In this document: piece after piece, positions 5,089 to 64,000 of the stretch | Layout of the letters: each line of letters begins with the position of its first letter | Position numbering within the stretch: the stretch's first letter is position 1 | From: Azolla caroliniana | Taxonomy: Eukaryota > Plantae > Polypodiophyta | DNA: 64,000 nt | Reading direction: 5' to 3' | Assembly: GCA_043228905.1 (NCBI GenBank) | Contig: JBHGNT010000013.1 | Span: 13,144,001 to 13,208,000 of the forward strand | Program-made: the position numbers and the translations under genes | Notes under the pieces: generated by a model | What the model was told of the DNA's origin: nothing | Database searches by the model: none | What the model saw: only the letters and a program-made list of their open reading frames with translations

Positions 5089-5741
5089 TCAGACAGGCCT
5101 CTTGCAGGGTTTAATTCTCCATATTTGCTCTGCATATTCGGAGACCACCTTGTCACTGCTAAACTTCCCAGAGTTGGCAGTGCTAAGAATGCTCATTTGA
5201 GTCCATTTCTTCTTATCCACAAATGCTTTATCAACAGCAGCCTAACAATAATACCCATCATAAATTTAGCTCAAAAAATATTCGTTGTTACATTGGATGT
5301 ATTATGTGCGCATGGAGTAAAGGTGCCACTTGATCCGAAAAATGTATAGAAAAATTACCACTTAATGTCAGATGAGAAATTCCTTATATGACGGTTGTTT
5401 ATTGCTTCAGAAAATCAAGTGATGGGAAAAACTCACAAATGCAGTAGAAATTCAGAGAAAGCAAGCTTTAGTCTGATGTTTAGAATTGATACAGACACAT
5501 ATAAAATCTATCATGCATGCCCTTGCAAGAAGTGGAAATAAACAAAAATAAAGAAACACGATGCAATGTTTCCGAGGAAATATCAAGAATATCGTGGAAT
5601 ACACAAAGAAAATGTGTTTGGAGACATTAATTAATGAGAAGGCCTCCCAATGGTGACCACTTATTTTCCATATATTATGATTGAACCATCTGTTATCAAT
5701 GATGTTGAAATATTACGAGAGAGAGAGAGAGAAAGAAAGAA

Positions 5742-5772
<31 letters not shown>

Positions 5773-8700: not shown

Positions 8701-11700
8701 ATTTGTGGGGCCAGATGCCATAGAAGTCCTGCAAATCATGAGACAAAGACAGTACTGGCTAACTATCTAGTTGAACCTTCAGAAATGAATGCACAATGGC
8801 AGCTACGAAGTTTACATGATTGTCTGTTACCTTCAGAAGTACAGATTTTACATATGCAGAATGCATTTGGGAAACGCCATTTACTGTGTGAGAAGCTACA
8901 ACAGCCAAATTTGCCATTCTGATCATCTGCATTGTGTGGACTAATCACCTTAGTATGGAAGAATTAATTCTAGAATACCATCCATAACAAAACTAACCTT
9001 TGTGGAGTCTTCCTCAACAATGGATAGTCGAGCCAAACGATCAAAATCAGATCCAACTTTTTTCTTAACTTCATCAATGAACATATCATTGATCTTGTAG
9101 ATTATCTACAGAATAGCAAAACAAAAAACATTTGAGCAATAGATGTCCGAAGTGAGAAAATGAATGACGATTTCAATTTCGATATGTTGCAGAAAACCAA
9201 GGAACATGGAGCAAAAAACTTCAACAATTAAATCATAATAGTTACGAAGGGCAATAGAAAACACAGGATCCCCACTACTTAACATGATACATGTACCTGT
9301 AGTATACTCATAAATATTGTATAACAAAATATCCCAGTTAAACCAGAATAACTTCTGCCATTTGCAGAACAAAACTTAATTAAATGCAGAAATAGAAATC
9401 TGTCATCTTCTTGAAAGTTGAGATAATCAAATAATGTGTTCGGTTCATTATTCAACATTATTTAGAAAGAAAGAACATCTCTAAATAGGACAAACTAACC
9501 TATTCAGACCCACAAGTGTTACAATCATGATACGATATCTCATCAAAGCTCTGTGAACTAGTAAGTAAATGTAGAAGTTACCCTGGAGTAGGCTCTGAAC
9601 AAAATTATCAAAGAGCTATGTGATACAACATCCAAGTCAGGAGTTTTCTAATGTGAGAACACTTTTAGGGTGTCTCACAATATAGTATCAAAGGCATTTC
9701 GGAAATCCAGAAAGCAGCAATAAATCCTCTTTGGACTCTGCCCTCCTAGATAAGGACTAAGATGGTCAATATGTGATCCAAAGTTGTGAACCCCTTTGGA
9801 AAGCCCGATTGTTCAGCTGAATATCAGTTGGTGTGTATATGGAGATGAGCATCACAGATGCATTGGTTAGCAAAACCTTATCTTAACACTAAGGTACAAC
9901 TTTCATACAAAAATTAATGGAATTAAACTCTCTAAAAGACTACAATGGCCTATGAGATCTGACAAAATACTACAGGTGTTTAGAGTGCAGGAGACAGAGG
10001 TTTGGCAGCCATAATCATGTTGGGCCAATAATAAAAAATATTTCAGTCGCGCACCCAAAGATAATATTTACTCACGAAAAACTTGAGATGCTGTATTGAG
10101 CCTAAATAAAGTTTGTCTCAACTCAAGAAATTCCTTTTTAGAAAATCCATTAACAACCTCTCATTTCAGCGTTATTACTACTACATACAGAGGTAACAAA
10201 AATCGTCAAACTATTATCATAATTAGAAACCCATTTGTGATGATAGCTGATCTGAAATCTCATACCCTAGGCATGTTTAAACCTGTATGCAATCTTGTCA
10301 GCAATAGCATCATTTGATTAAAAGTGCAAGCAAAACTTTTGATAACCATATAGACCAATATTTTCAAGGCCAACCACTTCATGGAAGCTTCACTAAAATA
10401 AACAAGATGGAAATAAAATAATGTATTGACACATGCTTACTTGAAGGTGGCGAGGCAATAGACTTCCCATCAGCTCCACTGGCCATTTCTCTAGTCCATC
10501 TGGTGCGATAGCATGATTTGTGTATGAGAAAACTCTGGTCACAATGTTCCAAGCATTTTGCCAAACCAAATTCTCTTCATCGATAAGCATTCGCATCAGC
10601 TCTACTACTGCAATGGATGGATGAGTGTCATTCAAATGTAATGCAATCTGTAACAGGAAAAAGCACCAAGATGAATTTAATCAATAATGATGAGGTATCA
10701 CCCAAAGTATAATACTCAAGTAGAAGACTAGTCAAATTAGATACCTTATCTGGAAATTCCTCGAAATCAGAATGATAGTCCTTGAACCGTCTTATAATAT
10801 CTTGGAGAGAGGCCGAAACAAAGAAATACTGTTGCTTCAATCGCAGCTCCTTCCCCTTTAATGATCAAAGCTAGCAAACTTTAGTATTGTAGTACAAAAT
10901 AGCAAGCTGCAACATTATTATACAGACATTGCAACTTATGATGTTGAGTCTAGAACCAAGCTAAGAGATTTGGAGAAATGACTTGCAATGAACGAGCAAT
11001 AAAAAGATGGTGACTATGGTGAATGGTCTATATCAACTTCAATGATTGAGTTCCATCTGTTGTTTTTCTATGATTTAGTGATCTCATCAAAGTACAAAAA
11101 GCTCCTTTTGATGCCAGTGGTTCAGTCAATGTTCTATGTTGAGTGGATGTGTTCTTTCTTACAATTCTTGTCTTAAAGGTCATGAAATGGTTTGGGTATG
11201 TTTGGAATCATTGCCTTGAGTTCTTCTCCTCAGCTTTCTTCTTCTTAGTCCAGTCTATACATTCCCTATCCCTCTATCAAGGCACAAGAGGATGTGGAGG
11301 TTACTGTTCTATCTCTGCCGGATCTTTAGACTTTCTCTAGTATGAACGCAGAGGGCCTACTATTTCCTATTTACGGGAAAATGCTTTTGAGCAGTTTTTG
11401 TGGGCACACCTTGTATATTGTTGCAAATGTTAAATAATGCATTGGCATTTTCATGCATAGCATACAATTTCAAATCAGTTTTAGTTTTATGTTGGATCTT
11501 TGGATACAATTAATCAGCTTCTTTGTGTCTGAGTCAATTGCCACACAGTTGATTGACTATGAGGACAGATATTACATGTTATGGGCCTTATGATCCATGT
11601 TAGAGCTTAATCCTAATGTAACCATGAAATAAAGAAATATAATGTAAGCATGTTAGAGAAAGAGAGAGAAAGAAGGGTGCCGATCCACCCAACCACCCTC

Positions 11701-26257: not shown

Positions 26258-27774
<1,517 letters not shown>

Positions 27775-32277: not shown

Positions 32278-33660
32278 TGTAAAGTTAATGAAGAGAGAGG
32301 GTGACTCTATATAAACCACCCTCCTCATACTTCATACTAAGTCGGTTGTGACTCTTTGTAATGCTACATTTTCATTTATCATATTCTCCTTGTTAATATA
32401 CATCTCCTTCTTCTTGAGTACTTCATTTTGTCTCTTATCCATCTTGTGTTTCTCTCCTCTCCTCTTTCCTCTCACACATACATATAACACATCTCTTCTC
32501 CTACACAAGAATCACCATTGATTCTTTACATGGTATCAGAGCGATTTGGTAGCTCAATCTAGCCCACTCGCCTCATCGTGATCGTGTGTTGTGCTCTACG
32601 CCGACGTTCAAGAAGAACTAGCTCATAACTATCGTAGTGCGACTACATAGCTCGTGTTCGAGAGAGAAGGAAAAGAAAAAGAAGGAAGAAATCTACATCG
32701 ACAATGAATATTCAAATGGGGAGCGCTCTCCCTAGCGAGAAGTTGGATCACAACTTTGCATCTTGGGAGTACAAGATGCACCAATACCTCGTTGGCCAAG
32801 GCTATTGGAGCTACATCAAAGGCGCACAAGAAAATTGGCCCAACCCGGAAGACGCCGACTATGCAACGTGGGAGCAAGCGGCAAGCCGAGTGATGTATTG
32901 CTAGGCGACATATGTTCATGACCACATGATCGGGTACATTTGAGAAGCCGAGACGCCGAAGGAAGTGTGGGAGAATCTACGAAAGATTTTCGCCGCCAAC
33001 ACTACCGCAAGAAAGCTTCAAACCCACCAATAGTTGAACAACATCAAATAAAGGGATATGTCCATCACAAGCTACACCTTGAAGATCAAGGAGCTTTGCG
33101 ACTCGCTTGGCTCGATAAGCGTCAATGTGGACGATGACGAGATGGTGCAAATATGCCTCAGTGGCCTTGCACCACGATTCAGCGCGATGCGGACCGCCAT
33201 ACTAGCACGAGAGAATCCACCCTCCTTCTTCGATCTTCAATCTATGTTGTTGGTCGAAGAAAACCATGATCGAACGAGGAGCAACACCTCGGAAGGCCAC
33301 ATGCTCTACACGCATTCGGACGGAGGAAGAGGACGCGACCGTGCAAGAAGAGGCTGATTCGGCCAAGGACGAGGCCTGACTTACGAAAACAACTTGCAAT
33401 TTCAGCATCAAGATGGAGGCCATCGGGGAACCTTCGGAAGAAGGGGGAGCCACCATTCCGGTCCAAGCCGACAAACCTCAATCGAATGCGGATATTGCGG
33501 GGAAGTCGGCCACCGCGAAGAAGAGTGCCGAAAGAAGATGCGTGAGTTGGCGTCCACAAGCCAACAACTCACGAATTACGCCACCAACTCTGAGTACGAC
33601 GATTACGACAGACTATTCGTGATGAGACATAGAGCAAACTCTATGTCGGCTTCTACATCA
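32278..33660 (+). mobile_element. Truncated Ty1/copia element: 5' LTR 32278-32530, PBS 32531-32542, disrupted gag
   Basis: LTR termini TGTAAAG...CTTTACA; PBS TGGTATCAGAGC; gag motifs NFASWEYKM and YTLKIKELCDSLGSI; zinc knuckle CGYCGEVGHREEEC; internal stops; no protease, integrase or RT follows. Confidence 0.85.
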
Positions 33661-34330
33661 ACTAGGCGGCGAGGAAGTAGGGTTAAAGCCAATGTGTGCA
33701 ACAACGAAGTAAAGCAAAGCAAAATGATGAAAGTCCATGCGTGCGACAAAGAGGTCAAGCAAAGCGCGAAGACAAAAGCTAATGTGTGCGACAAAGAGAC
33801 CAAGCAAACCTCGAAAAGCAAAGATATGGGCCAAGTGGGCCAAGCGGATATGAAAGATGTGATCACAAAATCTAACAAGGATAATACTAGTGAAGAAGTC
33901 ATAGTCAACTCAAAGACGAGAGTATACCACAAAAGTGGACAAAGTGGGAAGCATGCGATGTGGTCACTTAAGGACCTAGAGGAGAGCATGCCGCTAAAGA
34001 ACGAATTGCTAAGAGTACTCAAGAATAGTATTTCGATAAGGCTTTTGAAAGACATGCATGGAACAAGAAAGAATGATAAGAGAAAATTAGATGACCAAGG
34101 AGATGGCCAAGATGAAGGTGGCGCATGCATAAGGAGTGAAACATTATGCTCTAGAGGAGCAAAGAGAGCCATGACAATCGGTCATGGAAATGCACAAATT
34201 GAGCGAAGAATATGGTGGATCGGATGGCAATGGCGATTCGGGTACATCAACAAAAAATTAAAGTAAACAAAAATGAATCCTCACCAAAATTGGCACATAC
34301 CGGTGGATGTGCAGGTTTGGTGGGGGCGAA

Positions 34331-35650
34331 TGTCGTGTGAATCTTCACACTATGTAAAAAAATAATGAAATAATGATTATAGATTAGATTAGTAGCTTAC
34401 TATAGAAAGATGGATATACTCAAGAGCTTCAAAATGTATTTTACTATATACAAAATGGAGAAATACATATTAAGTTATGTGAAAATAAAGTTTGAGAAGA
34501 TAGAGAAATTAGAACTATCCCACATAGATAGGAAACTTAAGGCCCTGGCTATATAAGCACCTTGAGCTCCCTCATTTTTCATTTGTTCTAAGAGCACTTT
34601 TGCCACTTTGTCTTGATGGATAATAGTGGCCAAATTCCCTAAATCTGGAAACCGGCCGGTAAACAAATCCGGAAACCGGCTGGTAAGCAAATCTGGTAAA
34701 TGGGTCCGGTAAGCAAATCCGGAAACCGGCCGGTATGCAAACCGGAAACTGGCCGGTATGCAAAATCGGAACCGGAACCGGCAAGCAAAACCGGAACCGG
34801 AACCGGCAAGCAAACCGAAACCGGTTGGCAAGCAAAACCGGAACTGACCGGTAAGCAAAACTGGAACCGAAACCGGCCGACAAGCAAAACCGGAACCGGC
34901 CGGTGAGGGATTCGACGATCGGGCGGAACCGGTGATCGTACGAGGTTGGACGCAAATCGAACGGATAAAAGGATCATGTGGCTATTTAAAGAAAGGTAAA
35001 AGAGACTAAAGTAAAGGTCAAGTGGACAGTCGCATGCAACTAAAGAAAAAGCCATGCAACTAAAAATAGATTGAACGAAAAGAAAAGCTATGCAACTAAA
35101 AGTAGAGGCCATGCAACAAAAAGTGGAGGCATATGATTAACGAGGAACTCCATATATAATTCCATTTCTTTTCCTATACTCAGAAGCTCTGTCCATATGA
35201 TATATTTCTTTTTCTTTTCCTTCTCAACTCCCTTATCTTAGGGAAGTAATATCTCTCATAAACCCTAATTTCCTTACGAAATCCCAAAAAACACTAATCT
35301 TCCCTACGGAAGCCATAACACTCAAAAACGTTAATCTTCCCTACGGAAGCCATAATACTCATATAACCATAATCTCTTATCAAAGCCAAGAACCCTAAAT
35401 CTCTATGGAATCCATATCTTAGTTTATTTTAATCTATTATTCTAGCAATCTCCTTACGATAAAACTTTTGTAATCTCAATCTTGAGATTGATTGTAATCT
35501 TTCTTTTTTCCGTTATTAATGAAATTTGTGAATCTTTATCATTTTGTATTAATTGTTTAATATAATCATACGAATCTGATATCTTCCGATTGGAGGCCCC
35601 GGGGTCCTGCCTCAAAGTTCACGTATCCTCGTCGTATTTTCGCGACAACG
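34331..35650 (+). mobile_element. Long LTR-like sequence (about 1.3 kb)
   Basis: Preceded by purine-rich GGGGGCGAA; termini TGTCGTG...CGCGACA; contains a tandem array and a TATA-like motif; no matching TSD. Confidence 0.5.
34645..34935. repeat. Imperfect tandem array of AACCGG / GCAAAACCGG units
   Basis: Directly visible; it generates the low-complexity ORFs at 34475-35112. Confidence 0.9.
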
Positions 35651-36208
35651 ATGGGCTGAAACTGTTGCCATCCCCGACGTCACTACGCCAACAATTGCCT
35701 CCCAACTCTTGCAAAAGGTAATATTTTAACATGGTTACCCTATCCAAATCTTATCTGATCAGGGCCGCCAGTTCCATGGGGATGTCCTCAATGCTATGGC
35801 TGTCATGAACACATGACCATTATGGCGTCACCCGGACTTGAACCTCGAACCTTGTAATTCATACTTGAAAACCTCAACCATTAAGATAGCTTATTGTTAT
35901 ATGAAACAATAAAAGCTACTTCTTGTATTACATTGATTATTGTAAAAACTCTAGATTATTCTAGAATGTCCTAGAGAATTCTAGGTCTAGAACATTCTAG
36001 AACATTCTAGAAATCTCTAAGCTATTCTATAGGAACCTATAAATAAGCGCATACATGTATTCTCAAATCAATTCGAATCAACACCAGTCTTTAGCTCTCA
36101 TTACATATCTTGTATCCATTCTCTTTCTTTCTCTATCTTATACATCCATTCTTCTCTGTCCTTCTTCCATCACTCTATCTTTTATCCTTGGTTCTGACAG
36201 TTTGATTC

Positions 36209-36255
<47 letters not shown>

Positions 36256-36279
36256 CTCCTTTGTAACCATCCTGAAACC

Positions 36280-37443
36280 ATGGCTGCCATTAACTCAGAA
36301 GAATATCTCACCCTTGTTGCAGAAATGGAGAACCTTAAATTCAAGTTCGCATCTCTTGAAGTAGAGAATCAACGTCTACTTGGGGATGTACAAAAGGTTA
36401 CTATAGAGAAGCAACAACAACAAGAGGAGTTCACGCGACGAGTGCAACAGTTAGAGTCGACAATCGTCATGTTACAACAACAAAGGGTTGAAGGTCATGG
36501 ACTTATCAAGGAGCCCAAAATTAGCCTCCAAGCTAAATTTGATGGGTCGAGGGCACATTTCCGAGGTTTTTTGAATCAAGTACGGTTGGTGATTCAAATG
36601 CATCCCGCACGTTATCCAACAGATGCATCACGAGTCGGGCTAGTGGGCACTTTATTGACTGGCATAGCGTTGTCGTGGTTTGCTCCATTGCTAGAGACCA
36701 ATTCTCCTCTACTGAATAATTTCGAGGAATTTATCAAGGAATTTAAGGCTTGTTTTGGAGATACTGATGGGGCGAGAACAGCTATCAACAAGATTCGTAC
36801 ACTTCGTCAAGGTGATCAACCAGCTTCAACATATGCTGCCAATTTCCGTCTCATCGCAAGCAATATTCCTTGGGATGAACAAGCCCTAATGGAGCAATTC
36901 CGTTCAGGCCTTCGTAGTGATGTCAAAGACTTACTTCTTACCTTCCCCGAGGATCCAAGGTCACTTACAGAAGCTATTAGTCGAGCAATACGGTGTGATA
37001 ATCGCCTTTTTGAGCGTCGATGTGAGCGACAACAACAAATAACAAGATCTAGATTCACACCAACTTATGCATCAGTAACGGCGCAATCATCCCCAAGGCA
37101 AATGTATAGCCCTGCTCCAACTCCAAGGCAAACACGTAGTCCAGTCCCAATGGATAGTCCTACACCCATGGAGATCGATATGACTCAACGACGAGGACCG
37201 TTGTCAGACGAAGAGAAGCAACGTCGTCGAGCAAACCATCTGTGCTTATATTGTGGAGGTCCAGGACATATAGCCATTCATTGCTCCCGTAGGCCGAGAC
37301 GTCAGGTAAATCAAATTCACTATGACAATAAAAATGAGTCCAACATTTTAGAAGTAGTTAGTGAATCTAATATTATGAATAATCCACCCTTTTCCAATAA
37401 ATTTGAAGTCCTAAGCCAATTAGAAGAGGAGTCAAACGAATAA
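36280..37443 (+). CDS. Chromovirus Gag (capsid plus CCHC zinc knuckle)
   Basis: MAAINSEE...KFDGSR...LRQG...FRSGL...PMEID...CLYCGGPGHIAIHC; intact frame. Confidence 0.9.
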   Translation: MAAINSEEYLTLVAEMENLKFKFASLEVENQRLLGDVQKVTIEKQQQQEEFTRRVQQLESTIVMLQQQRVEGHGLIKEPKISLQAKFDGSRAHFRGFLNQVRLVIQMHPARYPTDASRVGLVGTLLTGIALSWFAPLLETNSPLLNNFEEFIKEFKACFGDTDGARTAINKIRTLRQGDQPASTYAANFRLIASNIPWDEQALMEQFRSGLRSDVKDLLLTFPEDPRSLTEAISRAIRCDNRLFERRCERQQQITRSRFTPTYASVTAQSSPRQMYSPAPTPRQTRSPVPMDSPTPMEIDMTQRRGPLSDEEKQRRRANHLCLYCGGPGHIAIHCSRRPRRQVNQIHYDNKNESNILEVVSESNIMNNPPFSNKFEVLSQLEEESNE

Positions 37444-40400
37444 GTCCGGCCAAAATAGGAGCCATTTGGTTGGACAACCCTAGATATGTACAACCTAGTG
37501 TGGGTTCCATTTCTTCCAAGCATGTTAGTAGAGTCTTCTCAGCCCTAGTACAAGTTAGGACACCCAATTGTCAACTTCAAGTCCAAGCCCTCTTAGATAC
37601 TGGAGCCAATTCTTGTTTCATGGATAGAGATTTTGCCCAAAAACACCAAATATCCTTGCATACACTTCCTTGTCCAGTTTCCGTAGTAGTGATTGATGGA
37701 CGCCCCATAGCTTCCGGGAAGATATTTGAAGAGTCTGAGCCAATACACATACTCTTGGGTGATTTAGGATGTGTAGTTTCCTTTAACATAATCCGTAGTC
37801 CTGAGCATCCAATTGTCCTCGGTTTGCCATGGTTCGAGCTACATAACCCTAGAATCGATTGGAGGAAGCGAGAAATTAGGTGCCCTTTAGCAGAAAATAT
37901 CATTCTCAAGGATCGAACTCGGGATTATCCTCCCAAAGTATATAGTTCTACCGATGCACCATATCCTTCTCATCAAATTTCAGCCATCACATTGCATCAA
38001 TTGCACCAAGTGGGAGGCAAGGAGGACCTTTTCTTATTTGCAGTATCAGTGACACCTTCTAGTGTCACTCAAGGGAATTCAGACATCCAAATTCCCAAAA
38101 AATATCAAGACTATGCTGATGTTTTCGACAAAGTCAAAGCTAGTGTTCTTCCAAAGCATCGGCCGTACGCCTGTCCTATTGATCTCCAACCAGGAAAAGA
38201 GCCTCCGTGGGGTCCGATTTACAATTTATCACCCACTGAGCTTGAGGTTCTTCGAGAATACATCGAGGAAAATCTTGCACATGGGTTTATTCGACATTCA
38301 AAGTCTCCAGCTGGTGCTCCTATCTTTTTTGTGAAGAAAAAGGACGGCTCCCTTCGTTTGGTCGTGGACTATCGAGGCTTAAATAAAGTCACCATAAGGA
38401 ATAGGTATGCTTTACCTTTAATCTCCAATCTCTTAGAACGCATTGGTGGGGCAAAGCATTTTACCAAAATTGATCTAAGGGGTGCATATAATCTTGTTCG
38501 AATTCGGCCGGGAGATGAGTGGAAAACAGCGTTTCGTACTCGGTATGGTCATTTCGAGTATACAGTCATGCCTTTCGGGCTCACAAATGCACCTGCCGTA
38601 TTCCAACATATGGCAAATGACATCTTCCGAGATTTCTTGGATATTTTTCTAATCATCTACCTAGATGATCTATTGATTTACTCTAAAACACAGGGGGAGC
38701 ATGATATACATGTGCGGCAAGTACTTGAACGCCTAAGGAAGTATGGTCTTTACGCCAAACTTGAGAAATGCAGTTTTGATTGCAAACAAGTTGAATTTTT
38801 GGGATACACTATTTCATCCCAGGGTGTTTTCATGGACCCGGCAAAAGTCCAAACAATATTGGAATGGAAACCCCCATGCTCAGTTCGGGATGTCCAGTGT
38901 TTCCTCGGATTTGCGAACTTCTATCGCAAATTCATACATAATTATTCAAGCATTGTGTTGCCCCTTACTCAACTCACCAAGAAAAATCAAGCATTTTTTT
39001 GGAGTATCGAAGCGGACAAGGCTTTTACGCAGCTGAAAGAGGCATTCACATCAGCACCCATCCTAGCACATATTGATCCTGAAAAGCCATTTACTATTGA
39101 GGCGGATGCATCAGACTTTGCATTGGGGAGTATCCTATCGCAACCAGGCGAGGACGGGCAGATACATCCAGTCGCGTTTCACTCGAGAAAGTTTACTGTT
39201 TCGGAGATAAACTATGAGGTGCATGACAAAGAGTTACTAGCTTTGGTCGACTCATTCGAGCAATGGCGTCATTTTCTAGAAGGATCACCTCATCAGATTA
39301 TCATTTATAGTGATCACAAAAATCTCACATATTTTCAAACAGCTCGAGTATTAATTAGACGACAAGCTCGGTGGGCCCAATTTCTAACGCGTTTCGATTT
39401 CAAGATCATTTTTCGCCCCAGAAAACAACAAGGGAAAGCAGATGCTCTGTCTCGGCGTTCGTATCTAGCCCTTCGACCTGGAGATCTGGCCTTTGACAAT
39501 CAAAAGCAAACTCTCCTCGGGCCATCAAAGCTATAGGTAACAACAATTTATGCCACACCACTTGATTCTACCCTTCTTGACACTATTCGGCAACAACTTC
39601 ATTCGAATGATTTTGCTAAGGATGTATTAGCCCACTGTGGTTCAAGTCGTCCATCTTGCTCCACATTGCCAGGGTCATCTCAACATTATCAGGACTTCAA
39701 GTGGCAAGATGGTTTACTCTTCTACAAGAATCTCCTTTACGTCCCCGACGGATCACCCCGACTTCAAGTGTTGGAACATTGTCATGATGCCCCCATGGCT
39801 GGACATTTTGGTATTTCCAAGACCATTGAGCTGGTGAAACGTTCATTTTGGTGGCCTCACTTGCAAAAATTTGTCGAAGATTATGTTCGCACTTGTGACA
39901 CCTGCTGTCGCGCCAAAATACCCCGGCATCACCCTTATGGCTTACTACAACCATTACCCCCTCCCAACAAGCCATGACAGTCTATTTCTATGGATTTCAT
40001 TACGGATCTGCCACCTTCCAAAGGCTTTGATACTATTTTAACAGTAGTGGATCGGTTCACCAAGATGGCACATTTTGTACCATGTGTAAAGACCATCAAT
40101 AGTGAAGAAATTGCAGATCTCATTATGCGTGAAGTGTTTTGCCATCATGGTCTCCCGAATGATATTATTAGCGATCAAGGTCCTCAATTTATCTCACACT
40201 TTTGGAAGCACCTATGGGCAGGCCTCAAAATCTCTTGCAAACTCTCTTCGGCTTATCATCCACAAACTGACGGACAAACAGAGCGCACAAATCAAACGCT
40301 CGAGCAATATCTTCGATGTTTCATTAGTTATCAACAAGATGATTGGAGTAAAATTTTACATCTTGCCGAGTTTGCATACAACAACACGGTCCACTCTTCT

Positions 40401-41099
40401 ACCAAAGTTACATCTTTCTTTGCCTACACCGGCAACCACCCTCGATGGTGTATACTGGATCTTCCCGAGGTGTCACGAAACCCTAGTGCGGCGCATCACC
40501 TCCACCGACTACAACAAATCCAGTTCGAGTTATCGTCACATCTTCAGAAAGCGCAAGCACACCATAAGACCAATGCCGATCGACATCGTCTTAAGTCTCC
40601 GTTTAAGGTTGGTGACCGTGTATGGTTGCTTCGTCGTCACATCAAGACTACCCGACCGTGTGCTAAGCTTGACTATCAACGCTTAGGTCCTTTTGTCATC
40701 ACGGCGCAGATTAATGATGCAACATTTCGTCTTAACCTTCCTGCACATATGCGGCTTCACCCTGTCTTTCATAGCTCTCTTTTGGAACCTTGCCACACCT
40801 CTTTAATTCCAAATCGTGTCGTGCCACCACCGCCTTCTATACAACTTGTGGACGGCCCCGAATACGAGGTAGCTGCTATTCTCGATTCTAAGATTGTGCG
40901 CAATAAGCTTTATTATCTAGTTGATTGGCTTGGTTATCCTCCGAGTGATCGCACTTGGGAACCCATCGATAACGTTTGTAATGCTGAAGCTCTGGTCAAC
41001 GACTTCCATCGTCACTATCCAAACAAGCCCGGCCCAACAATGTTAACGCCGACTTCCACTCGGCGTTCTCGAAGGAGGGATAGTGTCATGAACACATGA
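37431..41099 (+). pseudogene. Chromovirus Pol (-1 frame relative to gag), with two premature stops
   Basis: LLDTGA protease, YLDD RT, EADAS RNase H, HHCC and DDE integrase, GPF motif and chromodomain EYEVAAIL...YLVDWLGY...TWEP. ORFs 37470, 39666 and 39990 share one frame, broken by TAG 39534-39536 and TGA 39975-39977. Confidence 0.92.
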
Positions 41100-42759
41100 C
41101 CATTATGGCGTCACCCGAACTTGAACCTCGAACCTTGTAATTCATACTTGAAAACCTCAACCATTAAGATAGCTTATTGTTATATGAAACAATAAAAGCT
41201 ACTTCTTGTATTACATTGATTATTGTAAAAACTCTAGATTATTCTAGAATGTCCTAGAGCATTCTAGGTCTAGAACATTCTAGAACATTCTAGAAATCTC
41301 TAAGCTATTCTATAGGAACCTATAAATAAGCGCATACATGTATTCTCAAATCAATTCGAATCAACACCAGTCTTTAGCTCTCATTACATATCTTGTATCC
41401 ATTCTCTTTCTTTCTCTATCTTATACATCCATTCTTCTCTGTCCTTCTTCCATCACTCTATCTTTTATCCTTGGTTCTGACAATGGCAACTCAACTAGGT
41501 GTCCAACAAGTGTTTACATCCCCTTACCATCCTCAAACAAATGGCCTCACTGAACGCCTCAACAAGACCCTCAAGCAAGAAATTGCCGCTTACATTGATC
41601 CATGCCACAAAACATAGGATCAAATCTTGCCTTTTGTCACCCATGCCTACAATACATCCGTACAAGCGTCGACACGGATCAGCCCTTTTCGAGCACTCTA
41701 TGGACGCGACCCGCGGCTCCCACCAGAAACGTCCATTGACATCTGTTCTAAACCTGCCAACATGGATAGTGCTACTTGGGGGCTTTATCTCCAACAAATG
41801 CTCCCCCTCCTTCGACAAGCCAACTCTCGAAATCTACAAGTCACACAACAACGTCAAAAAGCGACACTACGACATGGGTTGAATCACCCCGACGTATGCT
41901 GATGGAACTAAAGTCCTTGTTTACTTCCCGATCCAACGGCGTGGTCTCAGTGAATCCCTCATGCACCGGTGGATCGGCCCATTCACCGTAATTCGTGCTA
42001 TCAAGTCCACGACTTACTTACTCCGGCGCGATTCCAACGGTCGATTCACCTCAGCCCATGTTGCCCGTATCAAGCCATATGCTACCCCAAGCATAACTTC
42101 TAGCACCCCTCCTTCTCTCATAGCGTAACACTCCTTGTTTTTTTGAGGGGGGAAATGTGGTGTCCCTTTCATGCAAGAGCATGCATTTGAACACTCCACT
42201 CTTTTAGCCACTCCCGTTTAGCACATCACCCATTTTAGCCCACCCTTTTAGCCCACCATTTTGGGACACGTGTAGCTAGGCCGTCCCAAAATGGGTTCTT
42301 TGTATCTTCTATATATTGAATGATAAGTATGAAGCTAGCTAGGCTGGTTTGGTTTCCTTTTATGTGCATTTCACAATATTTTTCAATATTTCAAAGTAAA
42401 GTTTTTCAAAGAATTAAATATTTTTCTTCAAAATGTAGGAATTAGGCTTGAAATGAAAAGCTTATCCCAAAAAATATATAAAAAAATAATCAAGTGGCAA
42501 CCTTAAACTGTCTAACTGTTTAAACTTAACAGAACCAAACCAAACCGTTTAAGCCGTTAAGTCGTGGTTTCGTAATTTGGTTTATTTCAAACCAAACCGT
42601 TGTTGATTGCTACTTGTGATAAGATCTTTGCTATTGTAGTGGGAACAACAAGGCTTTTAGCATTCTCATATTGTTTTACTATCTATACTACTTTTACTTA
42701 AAACAGAAGAAGAGAGAAATTGCCTTGATTTCAAAGACTTTTTTACTTCTTTAGAATGT

Positions 42760-48500: not shown

Positions 48501-49504
48501 CCAGGCATCAAAATTTTTAATTCACAAGGTTGCCACTAGCCAGTTGAGATAAGATTGAATAAAAAATGTATTTCTTGAAGTTGCATATTGCGACGAAGTT
48601 GCTAGATGGCAGAAGTACACAACCTTGGTTTTACCATACATTGAATAATTACTGAACTTCCACCTTTGCATTTGCATATATATACATGGAAGCGAAACGT
48701 AGCTATATTTCACTCCTCACGTGCTATTAAAATGGTTAAAATTCTTAACAACACAGTTAATCTCGTCCTTGTAATGATAATGGAGTAAAATTTTAAAGGC
48801 TGAATCTTGTTCAGTGACCATTTATACGAGGACCAGTCACAACACACGTGATATACCAGGAAAAAGCTGGCCAGCCTTTTTTATTGAAATGCATTCATTG
48901 AAAGGAGAAGGTTAATTGCGAAAACATTTATCATCTAATAAAATCCCACCCCTTAGCATGCCTTTATTCAATTACAGAGCCAGTGAAAAACTTTTTGACC
49001 CTTGCATGTATATCTCTTTTTTTTCTTTTTTTTCTATCTTTCTTTCATTTTCATCTGACCCCCTTTTTCATGTAGTGAGAGATACAAATTACAATGGCAT
49101 TAATAAAGAAACATTACGGCCTGCAAAAGTGCAAGGCAAACAATTATTCGATGCAAACTATGCAAGAAGAGGAGGATCCTCGACCAGAAGGAATAGTGGG
49201 GTAGACAAGGAAGAGAAACTAAATCTTCCTCTTGCATCTTTCATCTTCTTCTTCTTCTTCTTTCAGTGAACATTTTAACGCGTGGATTGTTTCATCTGTA
49301 GTATTTTACTCTCTGGCAGCCCACTTAGTAATAGTAGCAATCAATCTTAGGAATGGCACATGGAGAGCAAAACACAACAGACATGTTGATACATCATCAT
49401 AAGGAGCGGAAACCTTTTACCTTCAAATCCCCCTCTTCTCCCAATTTAGGATTCATCTTCTTCTTCTACGTCTATTTTGCCACTTAATAAAGTAAGCCCC
49501 AAGA

Positions 49505-52500
49505 TCAAAATGTTGAAGAGGCAGACCTAGGTATACTAGCGGTTCTTGTTTTACGATCATCTTCAATGGATATCATTCCGAGATGAGATGGATCCTCAAG
49601 CAACATCTTAGCTACAAGGTATCCAGCAATAGACCACGTTTGAAATTTACGAGCTTGTTTCCCTATGTATCTACCTGTTGTGCCATCATAATACTCAGGC
49701 CAATGATCCTTTGAAAGACGGCTTTCCAAAAGCTCAATCGCTCGGCGAGCCATGTGGGGTCTACCTGTCTTTATACACGCGGCAGTGAACAGCCAAATAA
49801 GCACTGCATTACACAACCACACAAAGGTGTCAAAAGAGCCTTGCAAAATCACAATAAGTCTTGAGACAACAATATTGCACTATTGATTCCACACTGATGC
49901 ACATGATCAGGACATAACATTATGAGTTCTGTAAGCAAATTCACAAGAAGTCTTGGACATTTTCCCATTGTGATTCCTGCATTGATTTCAAAAGTTATGA
50001 GTTTATGTAGGACCTTACATTAATTCTCATGGTGAATCAGTGGTAGATCATATGACGTCCAGATTTTCCACTTCATGATTCATCACTTTATAATGTAGAT
50101 TAGGACCTAACAATATGATGCTCTGCAGGTGAATCACTACTATTGCAGAACTTCTTCCACTACCATTACCTCTTTTAATGCGGATTAGAACCTCACCATA
50201 CGAGCTTGTGCAGGCTAGGCAACGTATAATTAGCAAGGTTCCCATATGGGGAAAAGTCTACAACTGAACTTCAATTGATCAACAAAAGGTTGACAAAAAG
50301 ACAACGAGTTGAATCCCATGCATAGATTTCTCAATCCAACATCAAAAGTCAATGTAAAACAAAGAGTCGACACTGAAGCAAGATGTTTCACAACAGTGGT
50401 TACACAAAAAATAACAAGATAGGAGAGAACCAAGCCAAGATTTCTCAGATAGATTGTTCCATTACCTGGCCAAGAACCTCCATTGTGGTAGCTCCACCTA
50501 GTGTTCTTGGGATCACATCCAGTCACGATCTTCCATTCGTGACCCTCTAAAGCAGGATAAACTATCTTGAGAGGCATCTCCCCTATCAGATCCTGCCATC
50601 TCTCCTCCAACAGATCCATGATTCCTTCTTCCTGCTCTGGGGTAGCCAGTGATGAAAGAATTGCAATACAATTGCCTAAGCAAAACCACCTAAAATCCAT
50701 CCTCGCAGGGCTTACATTCCCTATAAAGTAGCCACCTTTCATCGGCATGAAATCAAACACCCAATCCGGGATCGAATCGGGAATCACGTTGAATTTGTTC
50801 ACAGCAGTGTGCGAATATTCCTCAGTTTTGTACCGATAAACATTATTTAGCTGCTCGAAATCTAACCAGAAATACGATCTTATGTGAAAATTTAAAGCAT
50901 GTAGCCGTTTATCGATCCTCTCTGACAATTCCTTGCCATCACCCTCAGCTTTGAGCATCTTTTTGGCACATCTTAGGGCCATGTAGAAGAGAGCTTGAAT
51001 TTCTATAGGATAGCCATATATTCCCTTCAAAATACATGAGTAGAGATGGAGATGAAGTGGCCGTCACATGGAATTCCAGAAAAGATATGCACCAAGCAGA
51101 TACACGATGGTGAAACCCATCAAAGTTAGCACATAGCATAGACTGAACATAAAAAAGATAGGCATCAAGCAGAGACAAGATGATGAAACCCATCAAAAGT
51201 AGCACATGATCATGTGGAATGAACACCAAAGAGATAAGCCTAGATGAGATAAAATAAGATGAGATGAGATAAGATGGAATGAGCAACAAAACAAATTATG
51301 CATCAACCAGAGTTGCAATGAAGGTCATTACCAAGAACACAGATTTGTCACATGGAATTGAACAACAAAAGGAGATGAAATCCAGTTCTATATAATCTCA
51401 CCATACGGCGATCGATCATGCAGCATCCATCAGCGCAAAGCAGGGTTGGGAAAGTATCAAAACCCTCAGAAAGGCACAAGCTCAACACAAGCCGAATGCC
51501 TCTCTGACAATCAGCAGTTTCTGCAAGGCTCTGGTCTCCAGTAGACTTAGTGTATGCCCTGAGAAGAATAATCCACCAGAACCCAGAATCTACAGGAGCA
51601 ACTCTACCAATTGCACTCTCTCCAAAGTCAGCCATAATGCTATCATTGTTCTTCACAGGATCATGAAGGACTTTGAAGCTTGCTGGCATCGCTCCTTTCC
51701 CCAGTGTGAAGTTGTCAATCCTCTTCTCCCAATTTGATTGTAGCCGTAGTGCCTTCAGCAAGAAATTCTTCACAATCTCTGGCTCTCCATTCATCAGGAA
51801 TGCGAGAGCACTAGGCACAAAATCTCGGACGAACACCTGCAGCAACAGGTTTGGTAGCTAGCTTCTTGAGTCTGAAATTTTATTTATCTTTGTTTGGCAG
51901 GACCAATAATTAGTGGTAAACATTGGGGAAAAGAAGATGGACATCTATGAATTGACTGCGCAACCGTAAACAGAAAGTGCAAGCCTATGAAACGCATGGG
52001 ACTAAAAATAGTCAGAGAAAAGCTCCAAATCTATGTAATGAAAATATAGTAATGAATAACCGTAAAGAATGTGAGGTATTTCCAACATAGCTACAAACAT
52101 ATATATACATGTCTCGTCATCTGAGCTTACTTATGCCACATTCTGACGTAAAAACACATGATATGAAGAGCAAAAGGAGGTCGGCAAAGTCCAAATGAAG
52201 ACCGTGACTTTTGAAATTTCTCTGCACAGTAAAATTCAAAAGGAACACTTGTTTTCCACCATAACAAATCTGAGGTCAAATTCATGGCCAAAACCTGACC
52301 TTAAATAGACTCTAAAAAGAAGAAGAAAGGAGGCCAGCAAAGGCAGCATTAATAAGAAAGGAGACGAAAGTATGGAGCTTTGTTATAGATTTCTACCGAC
52401 GGTAAAATGCATAAAATTCACTAGAGCTAGGCATTCATCTGAGATGAAGCCATGCATAAAATTCACTAGAGCTAGGCATTCATCTGAGATGAAGCCGCCA

Positions 52501-53290
52501 CCAACGGTCTACGCAGCACAATACTTTTTAGATTATGTTGACAGGTAAAACTCGGAAAATGCGGCATAGAGGAGGAGACTGGAGTAAGCTCACTCTCAGA
52601 TTATCTCCACGATTAAAATCTAGCATTAAAACCCAAATGAGGACATGATAAGGAAGCTTCATATATTCCTCTAATGTTTAGTTTCTAAGAAAAAAGCAGG
52701 AAGCTAAAACAATTGAAGGGGGAGGAACTTATCATCACCTGATCATAGTTGAGAGCTTCTTCAGAATGATCACTGGCAGCGATGGTGCCGACAGGTTTGT
52801 TACGATAATAGACCAGAGATTTGCGCAGAGCATCCCATGCCTCGTGGTAAAGAGGATGAGGTTCAAAGCCATAACGGTCAGATCGCGGCGTATCGAGACC
52901 AGATCTCATACTGGGGGAAGTGAGAAGAGCTTCCAAGCATTCGGAGCTCCTCACAGTCTCTAGAGTTCTGCAAGGTCGAGGGGAGGGAGCGAAATCAGTG
53001 AGGGGGCGGTCGTCGGACTCAGATCTGGACGCTGCCGCGTCTTCTGATCTGGCTGGGGCAGAGAAGCTGTCGAAGACAGAAGATTTCCTTGGAGGGGGCC
53101 CATTCCTGGCCGGGCTCTGCTGTTGCTGTTGGTATGGGTATGGGTATGGGTATGGGTATTGTTGGTGCTCTGATGCATCAGAATCCTTGGCAATTGGGGG
53201 TTGGAGGATGATGGAGTCGGGTGAGGAGGGCTCAGGGAGAAGATCGATGGACAGGGGAGTCACACTAAACATGTCTGTGGCAGCTTGCAT
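49505..53290 (-). CDS. CINV: Alkaline/neutral invertase (GH100), cytosolic type, about 614 aa; exons 53290-52739, 51836-51402, 51024-50466, 49803-49505
   Basis: [61 protein letters not shown] and WPEYYDG motifs; the four-exon structure is typical of the cytosolic group; 1845 nt in frame. Confidence 0.95.
52406..52497. repeat. Perfect ~45-bp tandem duplication in invertase intron 1
   Basis: atgcataaaattcactagagctaggcattcatctgagatgaagcc occurs twice. Confidence 0.9.
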
Positions 53291-59028: not shown

Positions 59029-62000
59029 TGTCATGAACATCGACTCGAATTTGAGCCTTAGGTCTTTGTATATATATATATTTCTCAATAAAAACTTTAG
59101 ACTTTAAACCTTTGTATAAAGAATGGTATGTAAGACTTGGCATGAGCTTGCTTATCATGCATCACTACATGTATAAAAAGGGTTGATCTCCCTTGTTAAC
59201 ATCAAGGAGATCAACACTAGTCATGGAATAGATATTCTTACTCATTGTTATCAATTTCTCCATCTCTTTATCTCATCAAACTTCCCCATCTCTTTATCTT
59301 CCAATTGTTCATCCATGACAGATTGATCTCCTTCCTTCTTTTTCTTCTTTCTCAATACACTATCATGTTAGAATCGTCTAGCAACATTGAGCAAATTTTG
59401 GCGGTCTTGCAACAACTCCAACATGAGAATGCGAACTTGCAAAACTCTGTTCAAGAACTTCAGGCAGGCACAATGGTTATGCCTCACTCGATTGTTGACC
59501 CTTTTGTTGTAGAACTAGATTTCTAGACAAATTTGATGGAACAAGGTCACGGTCAAGAGGCTTCATCAACCAAATCCGCCTTATTATTCGTCTTCAACCT
59601 CGACGATATTCTGATGGCTTTCGACAAGTTGGGCTCATCGGCACGTTGTTGACAGGACAAGCGCAAGCCTGGTTTGCCCCTTTGATGGAGACCTCTTCGC
59701 CTCTCTTGAATGACTTCCAAGCATTTCTTACCGAATTTGAGGCAACTTTCGGGGAGACCGACAAAGGACAAGCCGCACTCAACAAACTATATGTGTTACA
59801 ACAAGGAGAACGTGCGGCATCAATCTATGCATCTGAATTTCGTCAACTCGCATGTGATGTTGAATGGGACAGACAAGCCCTCCTCGATCAATTCTGTGGA
59901 GGATTACGAGGTGAGATAAAAAATCTTTTGCTTAACTTTCATGAGCCCACATCTTTGAACGATGCTATTTCCCAAGTTGTGCATTGTGATAACTGTCTCT
60001 TTGAGTTCTGGCAAGAGGAACGTCATCACCGGATCCATTCACCTTGGCCAGCTGCTACATGAAGTCACTTACCATGGTCGACGACCCCGCCTCCCATGTC
60101 ATCCTCCACTTCATCCTCAACTCTTGCCATGGATTCTAGCTCCCCAATGGAGATCGATCGAATTCGCTATTGACCATTGACTAACGCGCAACGAAAATAT
60201 CAATGGGCCAACAATTTATGTTTCTATTGTGGCGGCCCCGACCATTTGATTCGCTCTTGACCAAAAAAGGAACCTCGTCAAACACCACATCGTGTGGATG
60301 GGGTTGACATTTTCTGCCAACAGGAAAATTCCAACGTCCAATTGTAGTAGGGGTTGTGCATCTGGACCACAAGAGTCGACAATTGTGTTAAGGGCCCAAT
60401 CGACCAACTTCCTCGACAACAAGCTTCACGCTTCCGATCACTCTTCAGTTTGGCTCTACCACTTTGAAAATAAAAGCTTTGTTGGATTCTGGGACTACAT
60501 CGTGCTTTATTAACATCATGTTTGCACGGACACACAACATTCCAAGCAACAAAATAATTGTCCCGATTCCAGTTGAAGTGATCGATGGTCGAACACTCTT
60601 CTGGTGCAATTAGAGATACAACAATTCCCTTGAGTCTCCACATAGGAGCCCACCAGGAAGAAATCATTCTTAACCTCATCACATCACCTCGACATCCTAT
60701 CATGTTGGGGTTATTATGGCTCGACACTCACAATCCAATCGTGAATTGGAGATCTCGCTCCATCAACTTCACCTCGAATTCTCGCCCACAAGGGATTACT
60801 TCCACTCTTCTTCGAGCAAATGCTCTGCCATTTGTTTGGCCGCCTACTCTTGTGAGGACCGTGTCAATGGTTGATGCCACTTATGTTTCAGGGACAACTC
60901 ATGTTTCTGCTCCGGTGAGGACCGCGTCAATGGTTTCTCCCACTCATGTTTTGGGGGCAAGTCCCATTTCTGCTCCAATGAGAACCACATTAGCGGTCAC
61001 TCCCATTTCCTCTTCAGTAAGAACCATGTCAACGGTTGCTCCAATAAAAACAACATCGATAGTTACTCCCGCGTTGGCCTCGGAAACAATTTCCACTCTT
61101 GCTTGGGTAAGTGATACACTGTTGATTGCATCCATTTCTAATTCTAAGGACATGGAGGTCGTGTCCACTCTAGACACTACCCTATGTACTAGCTCTTTTC
61201 CATCAAAATACAATGATTTCTCTAATGTATTTGAGAAGAAAAATGTTGATCGCCTGCCTGAACATCGCCCATACGATTGTCCAATTGATTTGAAAGATGA
61301 TGTTTGTCCTCCTTTTGGCCCTATCTATGGGTTATCTAAACTTGAACTCAAGGCCCTCAAAATATACATTGAAGAGAATATCGCAAAGGGATTCATTCGC
61401 CACTCAAAATCTCTAGCTGGCTCACCTATTCTATCTGTCAAAAAGAAAGATGGAACATTACGCCTATGTATCGATTATCGCGGGCTCAATCGAGTCACCG
61501 TTCGAAATCGCTATCCACTACCTCTAATCCCCGAAGTTCTTGACCGACTTGGGCATTTTGAATACATGGTAATGCCATTTGGTCTCACAAATGCTCCTGC
61601 CATTTTTCAACATATGATGAATGACATCTTCCAAGAATATATGGACCAATTTGTGGTCATCTATCTCGACGACATACTTATCTTCTCACAAGACTACATA
61701 GAGCACACCAAGCATGTCCAACTTATCCTGTCCAAACTTCGGGAACATGGACTTTATGCAACACCCGAGAAGTGTGAGTTTGATCAACCCTTAGTGGAAT
61801 TCCTCAGGTATGTCATTTCATCTGATGGTCTCACTATGGACAAGAAGAAAGTCGCAATGGTTCAAGAGTGGGAAGTCCCCACCAAGGTCAAGGATGTGCA
61901 ATCATTTTTGGGTTTTGCCAACTTCTATCATCGATTCATTCAAGGATTCTCTACATTGGCGCGACCACTTATAACACTTAGTCGGAAGAATTCCCCTTTT

Positions 62001-64000
62001 TGATGGACTCCTACAACCCAACTAACATTCGAGACACTAAAGAAAGCTTTTACCTCGGCTCCAGTACTTCTACACCCAGACCTGACCAAACCATTTACGA
62101 TCGAAACTAATGCCTCTAACTTCGCCATCGGTGCCATTCTCTCTGAATCAGATAACAATGGGATTCTTCATCTTGTTGCCTTTTCTCAGAAGTTCACACC
62201 CCCCGAGATCAACTACCTAGTTTATGACAAAGAACTCTCTGCCATTATTGCTGCCTTTGAAGAATGGAGTCCTTATTGGCGAGCCCCCAACACCGTGTCC
62301 AGGTGGTGACTGATCACAAGAACCTCATCTACTTCACCACTACACGCATTTTGAACCGGAGGCAAGTGCGATGGTCGACCTTCCTAGCTGATTATGACTT
62401 TGAAATTGTTTTTTGTTCTTGTGCCCAACATGGTAAAGTCGATGCCCTATCTCGACGTTCGGAATTCGAAATCTGACCAGGAGATGCGACCTACAATCAA
62501 CAATCACGTTGTCTCCTACATCCACATCAGATTCAACTCTTTGCAGCTTATATGGGCGCAGATGAATCATTACTCAATGCAATAGCCATAGATACTACGA
62601 CCGACAAATTTGCAAAAGAGATTAAGGAGAATCGAGTCAACAACTCAACCATGAAGGAAATACAGAATATTCATGAACAATTTATGTTTCGGGATGGTTT
62701 TCTTTTCCGGAACAACGTAATGTATGTCCCAGATGGTCCTTGTCGTATCCGTATCGTGAAGGAATGCCATGATGATGCCCTAGATGGACATTTTGGCGTT
62801 GCAAAAATGTTGGAGTTAATCTCTAGAAGTTATTGGTGGCCGCAACCTTGGAAACTTGTTAAAGAATTCGTGAAAACATGTGCCTGCGCCAAAGCAGTAC
62901 ATCATCGTCCCTTTTGTCTACTTCAACCTCTACCAATTCCAAGTAGGCCATGGGCCTCCATCTCGACGGATTTTATTAGCGACCTTCCCGACATTGAGGG
63001 ATTCAGTTTAGTATTGGTGGTGGTTGACATATTCACAAAGATGGCGCATTTTATTCCATGTTCTAAAGCAATTTCAAGGATGGAAACAACATATCTATTG
63101 TTAACAAATATTGTGGACCTTCACGATTTACCGGATGACATTATCTCTGATCGCGGTCCCCAATTTATGTCTCATTTCTGGAAATGCCTCTTCTAGACTC
63201 TTAGAATTTCCACAAAATTTCTGACAACCTTTCATCCTGAGACAGACGACCAAACAGAACGAGTAAATCAGATCCTAGAGCAATATCTCCGATGTATGAT
63301 AAGTTATCACCAAGATGATTGGATCAAATTTCTTCCAATGGCCGAGTTCGCCTACAATGTTAGTCTCCACACATCAACTAGCGTAACACCATTTCTCGCA
63401 AATTATGGGTTCCACCCACGCTTTAGCATAGCTATCACTACTGGTTCTATGAATCCATCTGCTGAAGAACGAGCTCGTCTGATGAAAGAAGTGCATCATG
63501 AACTATCCCTAGAACGAGCTCTTCTAGACTCTTGGAACTTCCACAAAATTTCTGACAACCTTTCATCCTGAGACAGACGGCCAAACAGAACGAGTAAATC
63601 AGATCCTAGAGCAATATCTCCGATGTATGATAAGTTATCACCAAGATGACTGGATCAAATTTCTTCCAATGGCCGAGTTCGCCTACAACAATACTCTCCA
63701 CACATCAACTAGCGTAACACCATTTCTCGCAAATTATGGGTTCCACCCACGCTTTAGCATAGCTATCACTACTGGTTCTATGAATCCAGCTGCTGAAGAA
63801 CGAGCTCGTCTGATGAAAGAAGTGCATCATGAACTATCCCTAGAACTCTCCATTGTCCAGGAACGACACAAAGAGAAGGTTGATCGACATTGGCAGGCTG
63901 CACCTGGTTTTAAAGTTGGAGACATGGTCTTGCTATTATGTCAGCATATTCCGACAACTCGCCCATGCAACAAACTTGATTACAAAAAGTTGGGTTCATT
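59029..64000 (+). mobile_element. Second, degenerate Ty3/gypsy element related to the Tcn1-like chromovirus; 5' LTR 59029-59320; runs off the window
   Basis: LTR TGTCATG...CATGACA; gag homologous to the first element (VGLIGTLLTG.A.AWFAPL.ET.SPLLN); VDSG protease, YLDD RT, RNase H and integrase, with stops and frameshifts. No chromodomain is visible within the window. Confidence 0.93.
63188..63846 (+). repeat. ~331-bp tandem duplication inside the integrase region
   Basis: 63188-63515 is repeated at 63519-63846 with few substitutions. Confidence 0.92.

What the first reader, a model, noticed from the sequence alone, without database searches (positions are those of the whole stretch)
36038..36213. 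tRNA-independent self-priming signature in a plant chromovirus
Seen: after the 5' LTR (ends 36199) there is no tRNA-iMet PBS like the TGGTATCAGAGC at 32531. Instead TTGATTCGAATT (36202-36213) is the exact reverse complement of AATTCGAATCAA (36070-36081), which starts 32 nt after the first T of the LTR TATAAATA (36038), where the transcript should begin. Established: S. pombe Tf1 primes reverse transcription with the first 11 nt of its own mRNA annealed to the PBS and then cleaved. Inference: this near-intact plant element uses the same mechanism, which to my knowledge has been characterised biochemically in fungi rather than plants.
Basis: partly seen in the sequence, partly recalled or inferred. 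Interest (0 to 1): 0.8.

Follow-up and report, generated by a model that had tools for sequence, protein, structure and literature searches.

The report
Plant retrotransposon primes its own copying
A young jumping gene in a land plant has no tRNA primer site; instead the 12 bases after its left repeat pair exactly with the predicted start of its own RNA, and both halves change together across relatives, so it likely primes its own copying as yeast Tf1 does, a route already predicted in print for this group of elements.

Summary
Observation confirmed. A 5,682-bp Ty3/gypsy chromovirus (35801-41482; 399-bp LTRs, 2 differences; ATGGC target duplication) has no tRNA primer site. Two bases after the 5' LTR, 36202-36213 is the exact complement of 36070-36081, 32 nt after the TATA box; 6 of 20,000 shuffles do as well. 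Relatives make the case strong: of 29 scorable loci 23 pair 12/12, six of the 12 pairs change on both sides, and pairing stops at the same edges. A second, distant element in this window has its own 11-bp version at the same spacing. RT groups with fungal and vertebrate (Tf1/sushi-type) elements, and the chromodomain keeps its aromatic cage. Best reading: Tf1-type self-priming (0.9); RNA start and cleavage are untested. It is not new: Neumann et al. 2019 predicted self-priming for 83% of 1,500 plant Tcn1 elements, and this scan noted it twice before on other DNA. This copy's pol has two in-frame stops. Added value: covariation evidence, and a possible range extension if the host is a fern (unresolved).

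The parts
35796..35800 (+). left target-site duplication ATGGC
   Evidence: same 5-mer at 41483-41487
35801..36199 (+). 5' LTR, 399 bp, TG...CA
   Evidence: contigs of runs X1/X2 begin or end at these edges (table 8)
36038..36045 (+). TATA box TATAAATA
   Evidence: TATAWA conserved in all 24 aligned copies (where it was also the anchor)
36070..36081 (+). predicted RNA 5' end and self-primer, 12 nt; C at -1, A at +1
   Evidence: start site inferred, not mapped
36083..36089 (+). conserved motif just after the primer, predicted to pair with the LTR end and spacer (36196-36201) as a second short duplex
   Evidence: consensus fold, 96.7% of cells paired but little covariation; not favoured in this copy's own fold
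36200..36201 (+). 2-nt spacer GT between LTR and primer-binding site
36202..36213 (+). primer-binding site complementary to the element's own R start; no TGG start, so not a full-tRNA site
36280..37443 (+). gag, 387 aa, open, with CCHC knuckle
   Evidence: PF03732, PF19259
37407..41099 (+). pol frame overlapping the end of gag: protease, RT, RNase H, integrase, chromodomain; broken by in-frame stops at 39534 and 39975
40860..41030 (+). group I chromodomain with aromatic cage residues Y, W, Y
   Evidence: residue definition from PMC3350952 passages
41071..41080 (+). polypurine tract, 3 nt before the 3' LTR
41084..41482 (+). 3' LTR, 399 bp, 2 differences from the 5' LTR
59029..59333 (+). second, distant and decayed chromovirus: LTR 59029-59320, TATA 59172, 11-nt self-primer 59204-59214 (32 nt after TATA), spacer GA, complementary site 59323-59333
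   Evidence: LTR start backed by contig edges; Gag 45% and Pol about 50% identical to close relatives of the main element

Best explanation
This is a recently inserted Ty3/gypsy chromovirus of the Tf1/sushi (Tcn1-like) type whose primer-binding site is complementary to the predicted first 12 bases of its own RNA, so members of this family likely start reverse transcription without a tRNA. Shown: the 12-bp match, its fixed place 32-33 nt after the TATA box, its sharp edges and its compensatory changes across relatives. Inferred: Pol II starts at the A of 36070; the RNA 5' end folds back over a loop of 120 nt onto 36202-36213; by analogy with Tf1, the RNase H of the element's RT cuts after base 12 and frees a 3' end; RT extends it through the 2-nt spacer into U5 and R. 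Inferred further: the primer is copied back into the primer-binding site during plus-strand synthesis, which would explain why changes appear on both sides at once and why complementarity ends exactly at the predicted RNA start. This copy's pol is broken, so it could only be copied with proteins from intact sisters.
For: Exact 12-bp match, 6 of 20,000 shuffles; MFE fold of the leader holds it, z -3.28, 0 of 200 shuffles, mean pair probability 0.92. Found from the inverted repeat first, 24 of 67 loci gave a perfect 12-bp match; 22 of these had a TATA upstream, the nearest at 32-33 nt in 21, and the 22nd has another at 32. With the primer anchored without using the binding site, 23 of 29 relatives pair 12/12, 5 pair 11/12 (3 by G-U), 1 pairs 10/12; own pairs average 11.5 against 9.2 for swapped partners, 0 of 100,000 permutations. 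Primer positions 2, 3, 4, 5, 7, 8 change on both sides (41 two-sided cells, 0 of 500 shuffles; slid registers 0-7). On a Gag tree, all 9 changes at positions 2, 3, 7 and 8 are concerted. Flanking positions are unpaired in 29-30 of 30 copies; -1/+1 is pyrimidine-purine in 29 of 30, the plant start rule (PMC1832190 passages). A distant element in this window and locus L079 carry different 11-nt primers with the same layout. RT lies with fungal and vertebrate elements, apart from seed-plant and algal rows. Tf1 mechanism: PMC7175516 passages.
Against: No start-site or primer data: the runs offered were contigs only. Not every relative fits: L031 pairs 9/12, L066, L070, L048 and L055 10/12, and in 8 loci with a long upstream stretch no primer region was found; decay or contig joins at CT repeats are the likely cause but were not shown. 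Tf1 needs three duplexes (bioRxiv 10.1101/2022.12.06.519325 passages); the duplex 3' of the binding site was not found (2 of 30 at p<=0.05), and the second duplex has pair probability <=0.03 in this copy and weak covariation (32 of 500 shuffles). Host tRNAs could not be searched. Nearly all relatives come from one series of similarly named assemblies and may be collapsed repeats, so they are not independent hosts.
Confidence: 0.9

Rival explanations
1. The same 12-nt primer is used, but mostly in trans: it is cut from the 5' end of the second, co-packaged RNA (or from the R copy near the RNA 3' end) rather than by fold-back of the same molecule.
For: The three-duplex 'pretzel' of Tf1 is not fully recovered. 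The 12-mer is also present at 41353-41364. Covariation alone cannot tell cis from trans.
Against: The cis fold is the predicted minimum-energy structure; a conserved motif after the primer can pair with the LTR end in 96.7% of cells and forms a long stem in the second element; the 5' edge of complementarity sits at the predicted start site, which the internal 3' copy would not explain.
Confidence: 0.05
2. A host tRNA fragment or other small RNA primes at this site, and the match to the LTR is secondary.
For: Half-tRNA priming is known for some plant Ty1/copia lineages. The primer contains TTCGAATC, which resembles a tRNA T-loop (motif recalled, no call). Host tRNAs were not searchable.
Against: The site has no TGG start; it takes at least eight perfectly matched forms in the family, each tracked by that element's own LTR; no tRNA-like match in 35700-36500 among 13 weak Rfam hits, no tRNA gene in the window. 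The T-loop-like word is not kept in register among variants.
Confidence: 0.03
3. The pairing is a conserved RNA or DNA structure for another job (translation control, packaging, dimerisation), or a chance match, and priming happens some other way.
For: Function is untested here; leader hairpins with other roles exist in retroelements (own knowledge).
Against: Chance is excluded. The 3' arm lies exactly where a primer must bind, 2 nt after the LTR, and no other primer site exists there; fixed length and edges fit a primer better than a regulatory stem.
Confidence: 0.02

Closest known systems
Plant chromovirus|Tcn1 clade (REXdb; Neumann et al. 2019, PMC6317226, passages and Additional file 5 read; Novikova et al. 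2010, PMC2864245, passages and one section read)
   Same: Chromodomain with aromatic cage, 5-bp TSD, size 5.7 kb within 5,466-9,444, gag and pol in overlapping frames, no tRNA site, LTR-complementary stretch of 10 nt or more within 0-5 nt of the LTR (their test for self-priming; 83% of 1,500 elements), RT close to fungal/vertebrate elements.
   Different: No named Tcn1 or moss reference was in my tree, so clade membership is by features and neighbours. Those papers report the clade only from mosses and club-mosses; the host here is unresolved and may be a fern. In the passages read they give no covariation analysis and no start-site mapping.
Tf1/Tf2 of Schizosaccharomyces pombe, Tj1 and Tosmo elements (PMC7175516, PMC4600332, bioRxiv 10.1101/2022.12.06.519325; passages read)
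   Same: Primer-binding site complementary to the RNA 5' end; chromovirus; second duplex possible between sequence after the primer and the LTR end.
   Different: 12 nt (11 in a sister lineage) against 11 in Tf1; two overlapping ORFs against one; the third duplex of the 'pretzel' is not detected; no biochemistry here.
TAR lineage of plant Ty1/copia (Houba, Osr-1; PMC6317226 passages)
   Same: Plant LTR elements predicted to self-prime (89%).
   Different: Other superfamily and domain order; unrelated origin.

Membership tests
Ty3/gypsy LTR retrotransposon | LTR pair with TG...CA, TSD, PPT, domain order Gag-PR-RT-RH-IN | tested here: met
Chromovirus | chromodomain at the integrase C-terminus | tested here: met
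   PF00385 E 6e-14
Plant Tcn1 clade | group I chromodomain with aromatic cage | tested here: met
   Y, W, Y aligned with CDY/HP1-type domains; definition
Plant Tcn1 clade | RT groups with fungal/vertebrate Tf1/sushi elements, not with seed-plant chromoviruses | tested here: met
   43-row quick tree: split of support 100 from Tanacetum, Centaurea, Chara, Closterium rows; nearest named rows Cunninghamella and Ustilago. Midpoint root; only 2 seed-plant rows, of unknown clade
Plant Tcn1 clade | one clade with Cryptococcus Tcn1 and the Physcomitrium/Selaginella elements | not testable with these tools
   no named reference among hits; REXdb sequence files too large to read
Plant Tcn1 clade | 5-bp TSD, gag and pol in overlapping frames, 5.5-9.4 kb | tested here: met
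   against the table
Plant Tcn1 clade | host is a moss or club-moss | tested here: inconclusive
   land-plant genes in the window; named relatives of the invertase did not resolve the lineage; earlier notes on this genome infer a fern (unchecked)
Tf1-type self-priming | no tRNA-complementary site; site complementary to an LTR segment | tested here: met
   host tRNA set itself not searched
Tf1-type self-priming | the complementary segment is the RNA 5' end | tested here: inconclusive
   TATA spacing 32-33 and YR at the edge fit; no raw RNA reads
Tf1-type self-priming | three-duplex 'pretzel' leader structure | tested here: inconclusive
   central duplex met; duplex 5' of the site conserved but weakly covarying; duplex 3' of the site not found by a simple duplex test
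Tf1-type self-priming | RNase H cleavage frees the primer | not testable with these tools
   needs biochemistry; RNase H domain present

The most novel reading that the evidence does not exclude
The host is a fern, and this is an abundant, recently active Tf1/sushi-type lineage that self-primes in a plant group where Tcn1 elements were looked for and not found; its 11-12-nt primer evolves freely because each round of reverse transcription copies the RNA 5' end into the primer-binding site, and it works with a reduced two-duplex leader instead of the full Tf1 pretzel.
Probability: 0.3. Interest if true: 0.4.

Novelty: new member of a known kind. Interest (0 to 1): 0.22.

Why it matters
Self-priming in plant chromoviruses has been a prediction from one short complementarity per element. 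The compensatory changes seen here across a family (Gag identity down to about 54%, and 45% for the second element) are evolutionary evidence that the pairing is used, and they mark the RNA start to the base, which makes a plant test simple. If the host is a fern, the known range of the clade, and the horizontal-transfer story attached to it, would need widening. The mechanism itself is not new.

Tried and rejected
Whole genome: none held, so no sister copies or tRNA genes from this host. Sequencing runs: no RNA holder listed; X1-X3 are contigs, show the family is present in X1 and X2 with LTR edges as called, and cannot show a start site. Viral contigs: no relative. Third duplex 3' of the binding site: 2 of 30 at p<=0.05, as chance would give. 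A further 3-bp stem (alignment columns 57-59 with 325-327), picked by eye: best of 62 registers but only 74% paired; not claimed. Independent check of LTR ends in relatives by an exact second copy in the same contig: 0 of 29, so their LTR ends rest on likeness to the window's. Rfam: 13 weak hits, none near its gathering score, most on the TCTAGA palindromes of U3. Lin and Levin 1998 (PMC109269) not held; Levin's primary papers were seen only through citing passages. Sequence look-up in earlier findings and 'near' look-up were blank. The careful Gag tree did not finish; quick trees were used.

Full report
Observation. The finding sits at the 5' end of a complete LTR element, 35801-41482. The two LTRs are 399 bp, start TG and end CA, differ at 2 positions and are flanked by ATGGC. 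After the 5' LTR come GT and then TTGATTCGAATT (36202-36213), the exact reverse complement of 36070-36081, which starts 32 nt after the first T of TATAAATA at 36038. The match is beyond chance: 6 of 20,000 dinucleotide shuffles of the LTR reach 12 or more, and 0 of 4,720 internal positions exceed 10. The neighbouring element with the tRNA-Met site at 32531 gives only 4 in the same test. The leader from 36070 folds with the 12-bp helix, z -3.28, 0 of 200 shuffles as stable.

Anatomy. gag (36280-37443) is open; pol overlaps it in another frame and holds protease, RT, RNase H, integrase and a chromodomain. Against a close 1,208-aa relative (P0247, 90% identical over 1,193 aa) the frame is continuous but has two in-frame stops, at 39534 and 39975, so this copy is not autonomous. 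A 10-purine tract lies 3 nt before the 3' LTR. The chromodomain keeps the three cage residues (definition in PMC3350952, passages). The element sits inside the integrase of another, decayed LTR element, whose frame runs on across the insertion. Two LTR differences give about 0.2-0.5 million years under three recalled rates. The window has actin and a spliced alkaline/neutral invertase gene, so the host is a land plant; I could not resolve its lineage. Earlier AI notes on this genome infer a fern (unchecked).

Relatives. A Gag alignment fetched 79 loci, the best 80 of 185 confirmed stretches. I left out 12 whose match began at the contig edge or lacked the Gag start, leaving 67. Searching first for inverted repeats, 24 of 67 gave a perfect 12-bp match; 22 of them had a TATA upstream, the nearest at 32-33 nt in 21, and the last has a second TATA at 32. 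To avoid circularity I then fixed the primer by TATA spacing and a downstream motif, and the binding site by the LTR end: 29 loci were scorable, 13 had too little upstream DNA, 12 had no LTR-end anchor, 13 had no TATA anchor. Of the 29, 23 pair 12/12, 5 pair 11/12 (3 through G-U) and 1 pairs 10/12. Among 12 distinct primer/site combinations, own partners pair 11.5 bases on average and swapped partners 9.2; 0 of 100,000 permutations reach the observed sum. On an alignment of 24 of these 30 regions (near-duplicates left out), six of the 12 pairs change on both sides; 41 two-sided cells against 13.9 in shuffles (0 of 500) and 0-7 in slid registers. Because relatives share changes by descent, I counted on a Gag tree of the 30 rows: primer 17 changes, site 16, joint state 20, and all 9 changes at positions 2, 3, 7, 8 are concerted (quick tree, 8 open forks). 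The positions flanking the helix are unpaired in 29-30 of 30 copies and the 5' edge is pyrimidine-purine in 29 of 30, the rule that holds for 77% of Arabidopsis start sites, with TATA boxes at -50 to -20 (PMC1832190, passages). Against this: of the 13 loci without TATA anchor, L031 pairs 9/12 and L048, L066, L070 10/12, L079 has a perfect 11-mer, and 8 show no primer region. Nearly all loci come from one series of similarly named assemblies and may be collapsed repeats.

A second case in the window. A decayed chromovirus starting at 59029 (Gag 45%, Pol about 50% identical to close relatives of the main element) has TATA at 59172, an 11-mer at 59204-59214 and its exact complement at 59323-59333, 2 nt after the LTR end: a different word at the same 32-nt spacing. 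It groups with L079 on the Gag tree.

Further structure. Tf1 needs three duplexes (bioRxiv 10.1101/2022.12.06.519325, passages). The consensus fold adds 5 pairs between a conserved motif after the primer and the LTR end plus spacer; 96.7% of cells pair, with an A-U/G-U switch in 11 of 24, but only one two-sided change (32 of 500 shuffles), and the LTR side is also the integrase end. In this copy those pairs have probability 0.03 or less, while in the second element they form a long stem. A duplex 3' of the binding site was not found.

Mechanism. Shown: complementarity, position, edges, covariation. Inferred: transcription starts at 36070, the 5' end folds onto the site, RNase H cuts after base 12 and RT extends from there, as for Tf1, where the first 11 bases pair and are cut between 11 and 12 (PMC7175516, passages; PMC4600332, passages). 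Inferred too, from the general scheme of LTR reverse transcription (own knowledge): plus-strand synthesis copies the primer into the binding site, which would give concerted changes on short branches (L002, L007) and edges that match the primer's ends. Rivals (priming in trans, a tRNA fragment, a non-priming structure) are given low weight for the reasons listed with them.

Comparison with what is known. In a 43-row RT-RNase H tree the element lies with fungal and vertebrate rows, nearest named Cunninghamella (61%) and Ustilago, split with support 100 from Tanacetum, Centaurea, Chara and Closterium rows (quick tree, midpoint root, no Tcn1 reference). That, the cage, the TSD, size and overlapping frames match the Tcn1 clade. 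Neumann et al. 2019 state that most Tcn1 elements lack tRNA sites and were predicted to self-prime, using a test that this element passes (PMC6317226, passages); their Additional file 5 gives 83% of 1,500. Their Additional files 1 and 3 could not be read and may list primers or close relatives. Novikova et al. 2010 found Tcn1-like RT clones only in Selaginella among 26 ferns and horsetails and 10 lycophytes, and no self-priming signal in SM-Tcn1 (PMC2864245, passages and section 7). My searches (listings, with passages of PMC7466625, PMC8282616 and PMC13469084) showed no biochemical test of self-priming in a plant and no report of Tcn1 in ferns; the library lacks most subscription papers, so this is not proof of absence. 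The scan has reported the same kind of finding twice on other genomes.

Verdict. Real, well supported, and a new member of a kind already predicted in print.

Noticed in passing
window 59029-64000: Second, decayed Tcn1-like chromovirus with its own 11-nt self-primer layout; runs off the window end and has a 328-bp tandem duplication in integrase (63188-63846).
   Followed up: partly
window 59181-59215: Between the TATA box and the predicted start of the second element lies another near-complement of its primer, forming an inverted repeat across the start site; upstream of the RNA, so DNA-level or a relic.
   Followed up: no
window 35943-36019: [quoted passage not shown] Likely promoter elements.
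   Followed up: no
window 36214-36254: (CT)n microsatellite directly after the primer-binding site; CT-rich tracts also fill U5 in many relatives, which would keep the leader free of competing structure.
   Followed up: no
window 32531-42000: The element is nested in the integrase of a decayed LTR element, probably the one with the tRNA-Met site at 32531; a contig of run X1 appears to show the empty site.
   Followed up: partly
window 37407-37443: gag and pol overlap in frames that need a -1 shift; no shift signal was examined.
   Followed up: no
window 49500-53290 (- strand) and 26967-27734: Host genes: spliced alkaline/neutral invertase with a (YP)n stretch in its N-terminus, and actin.
   Followed up: partly
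P0277: A Pol relative at 74% identity carries a dUTPase domain (PF00692), as described for some fungal elements.
   Followed up: no
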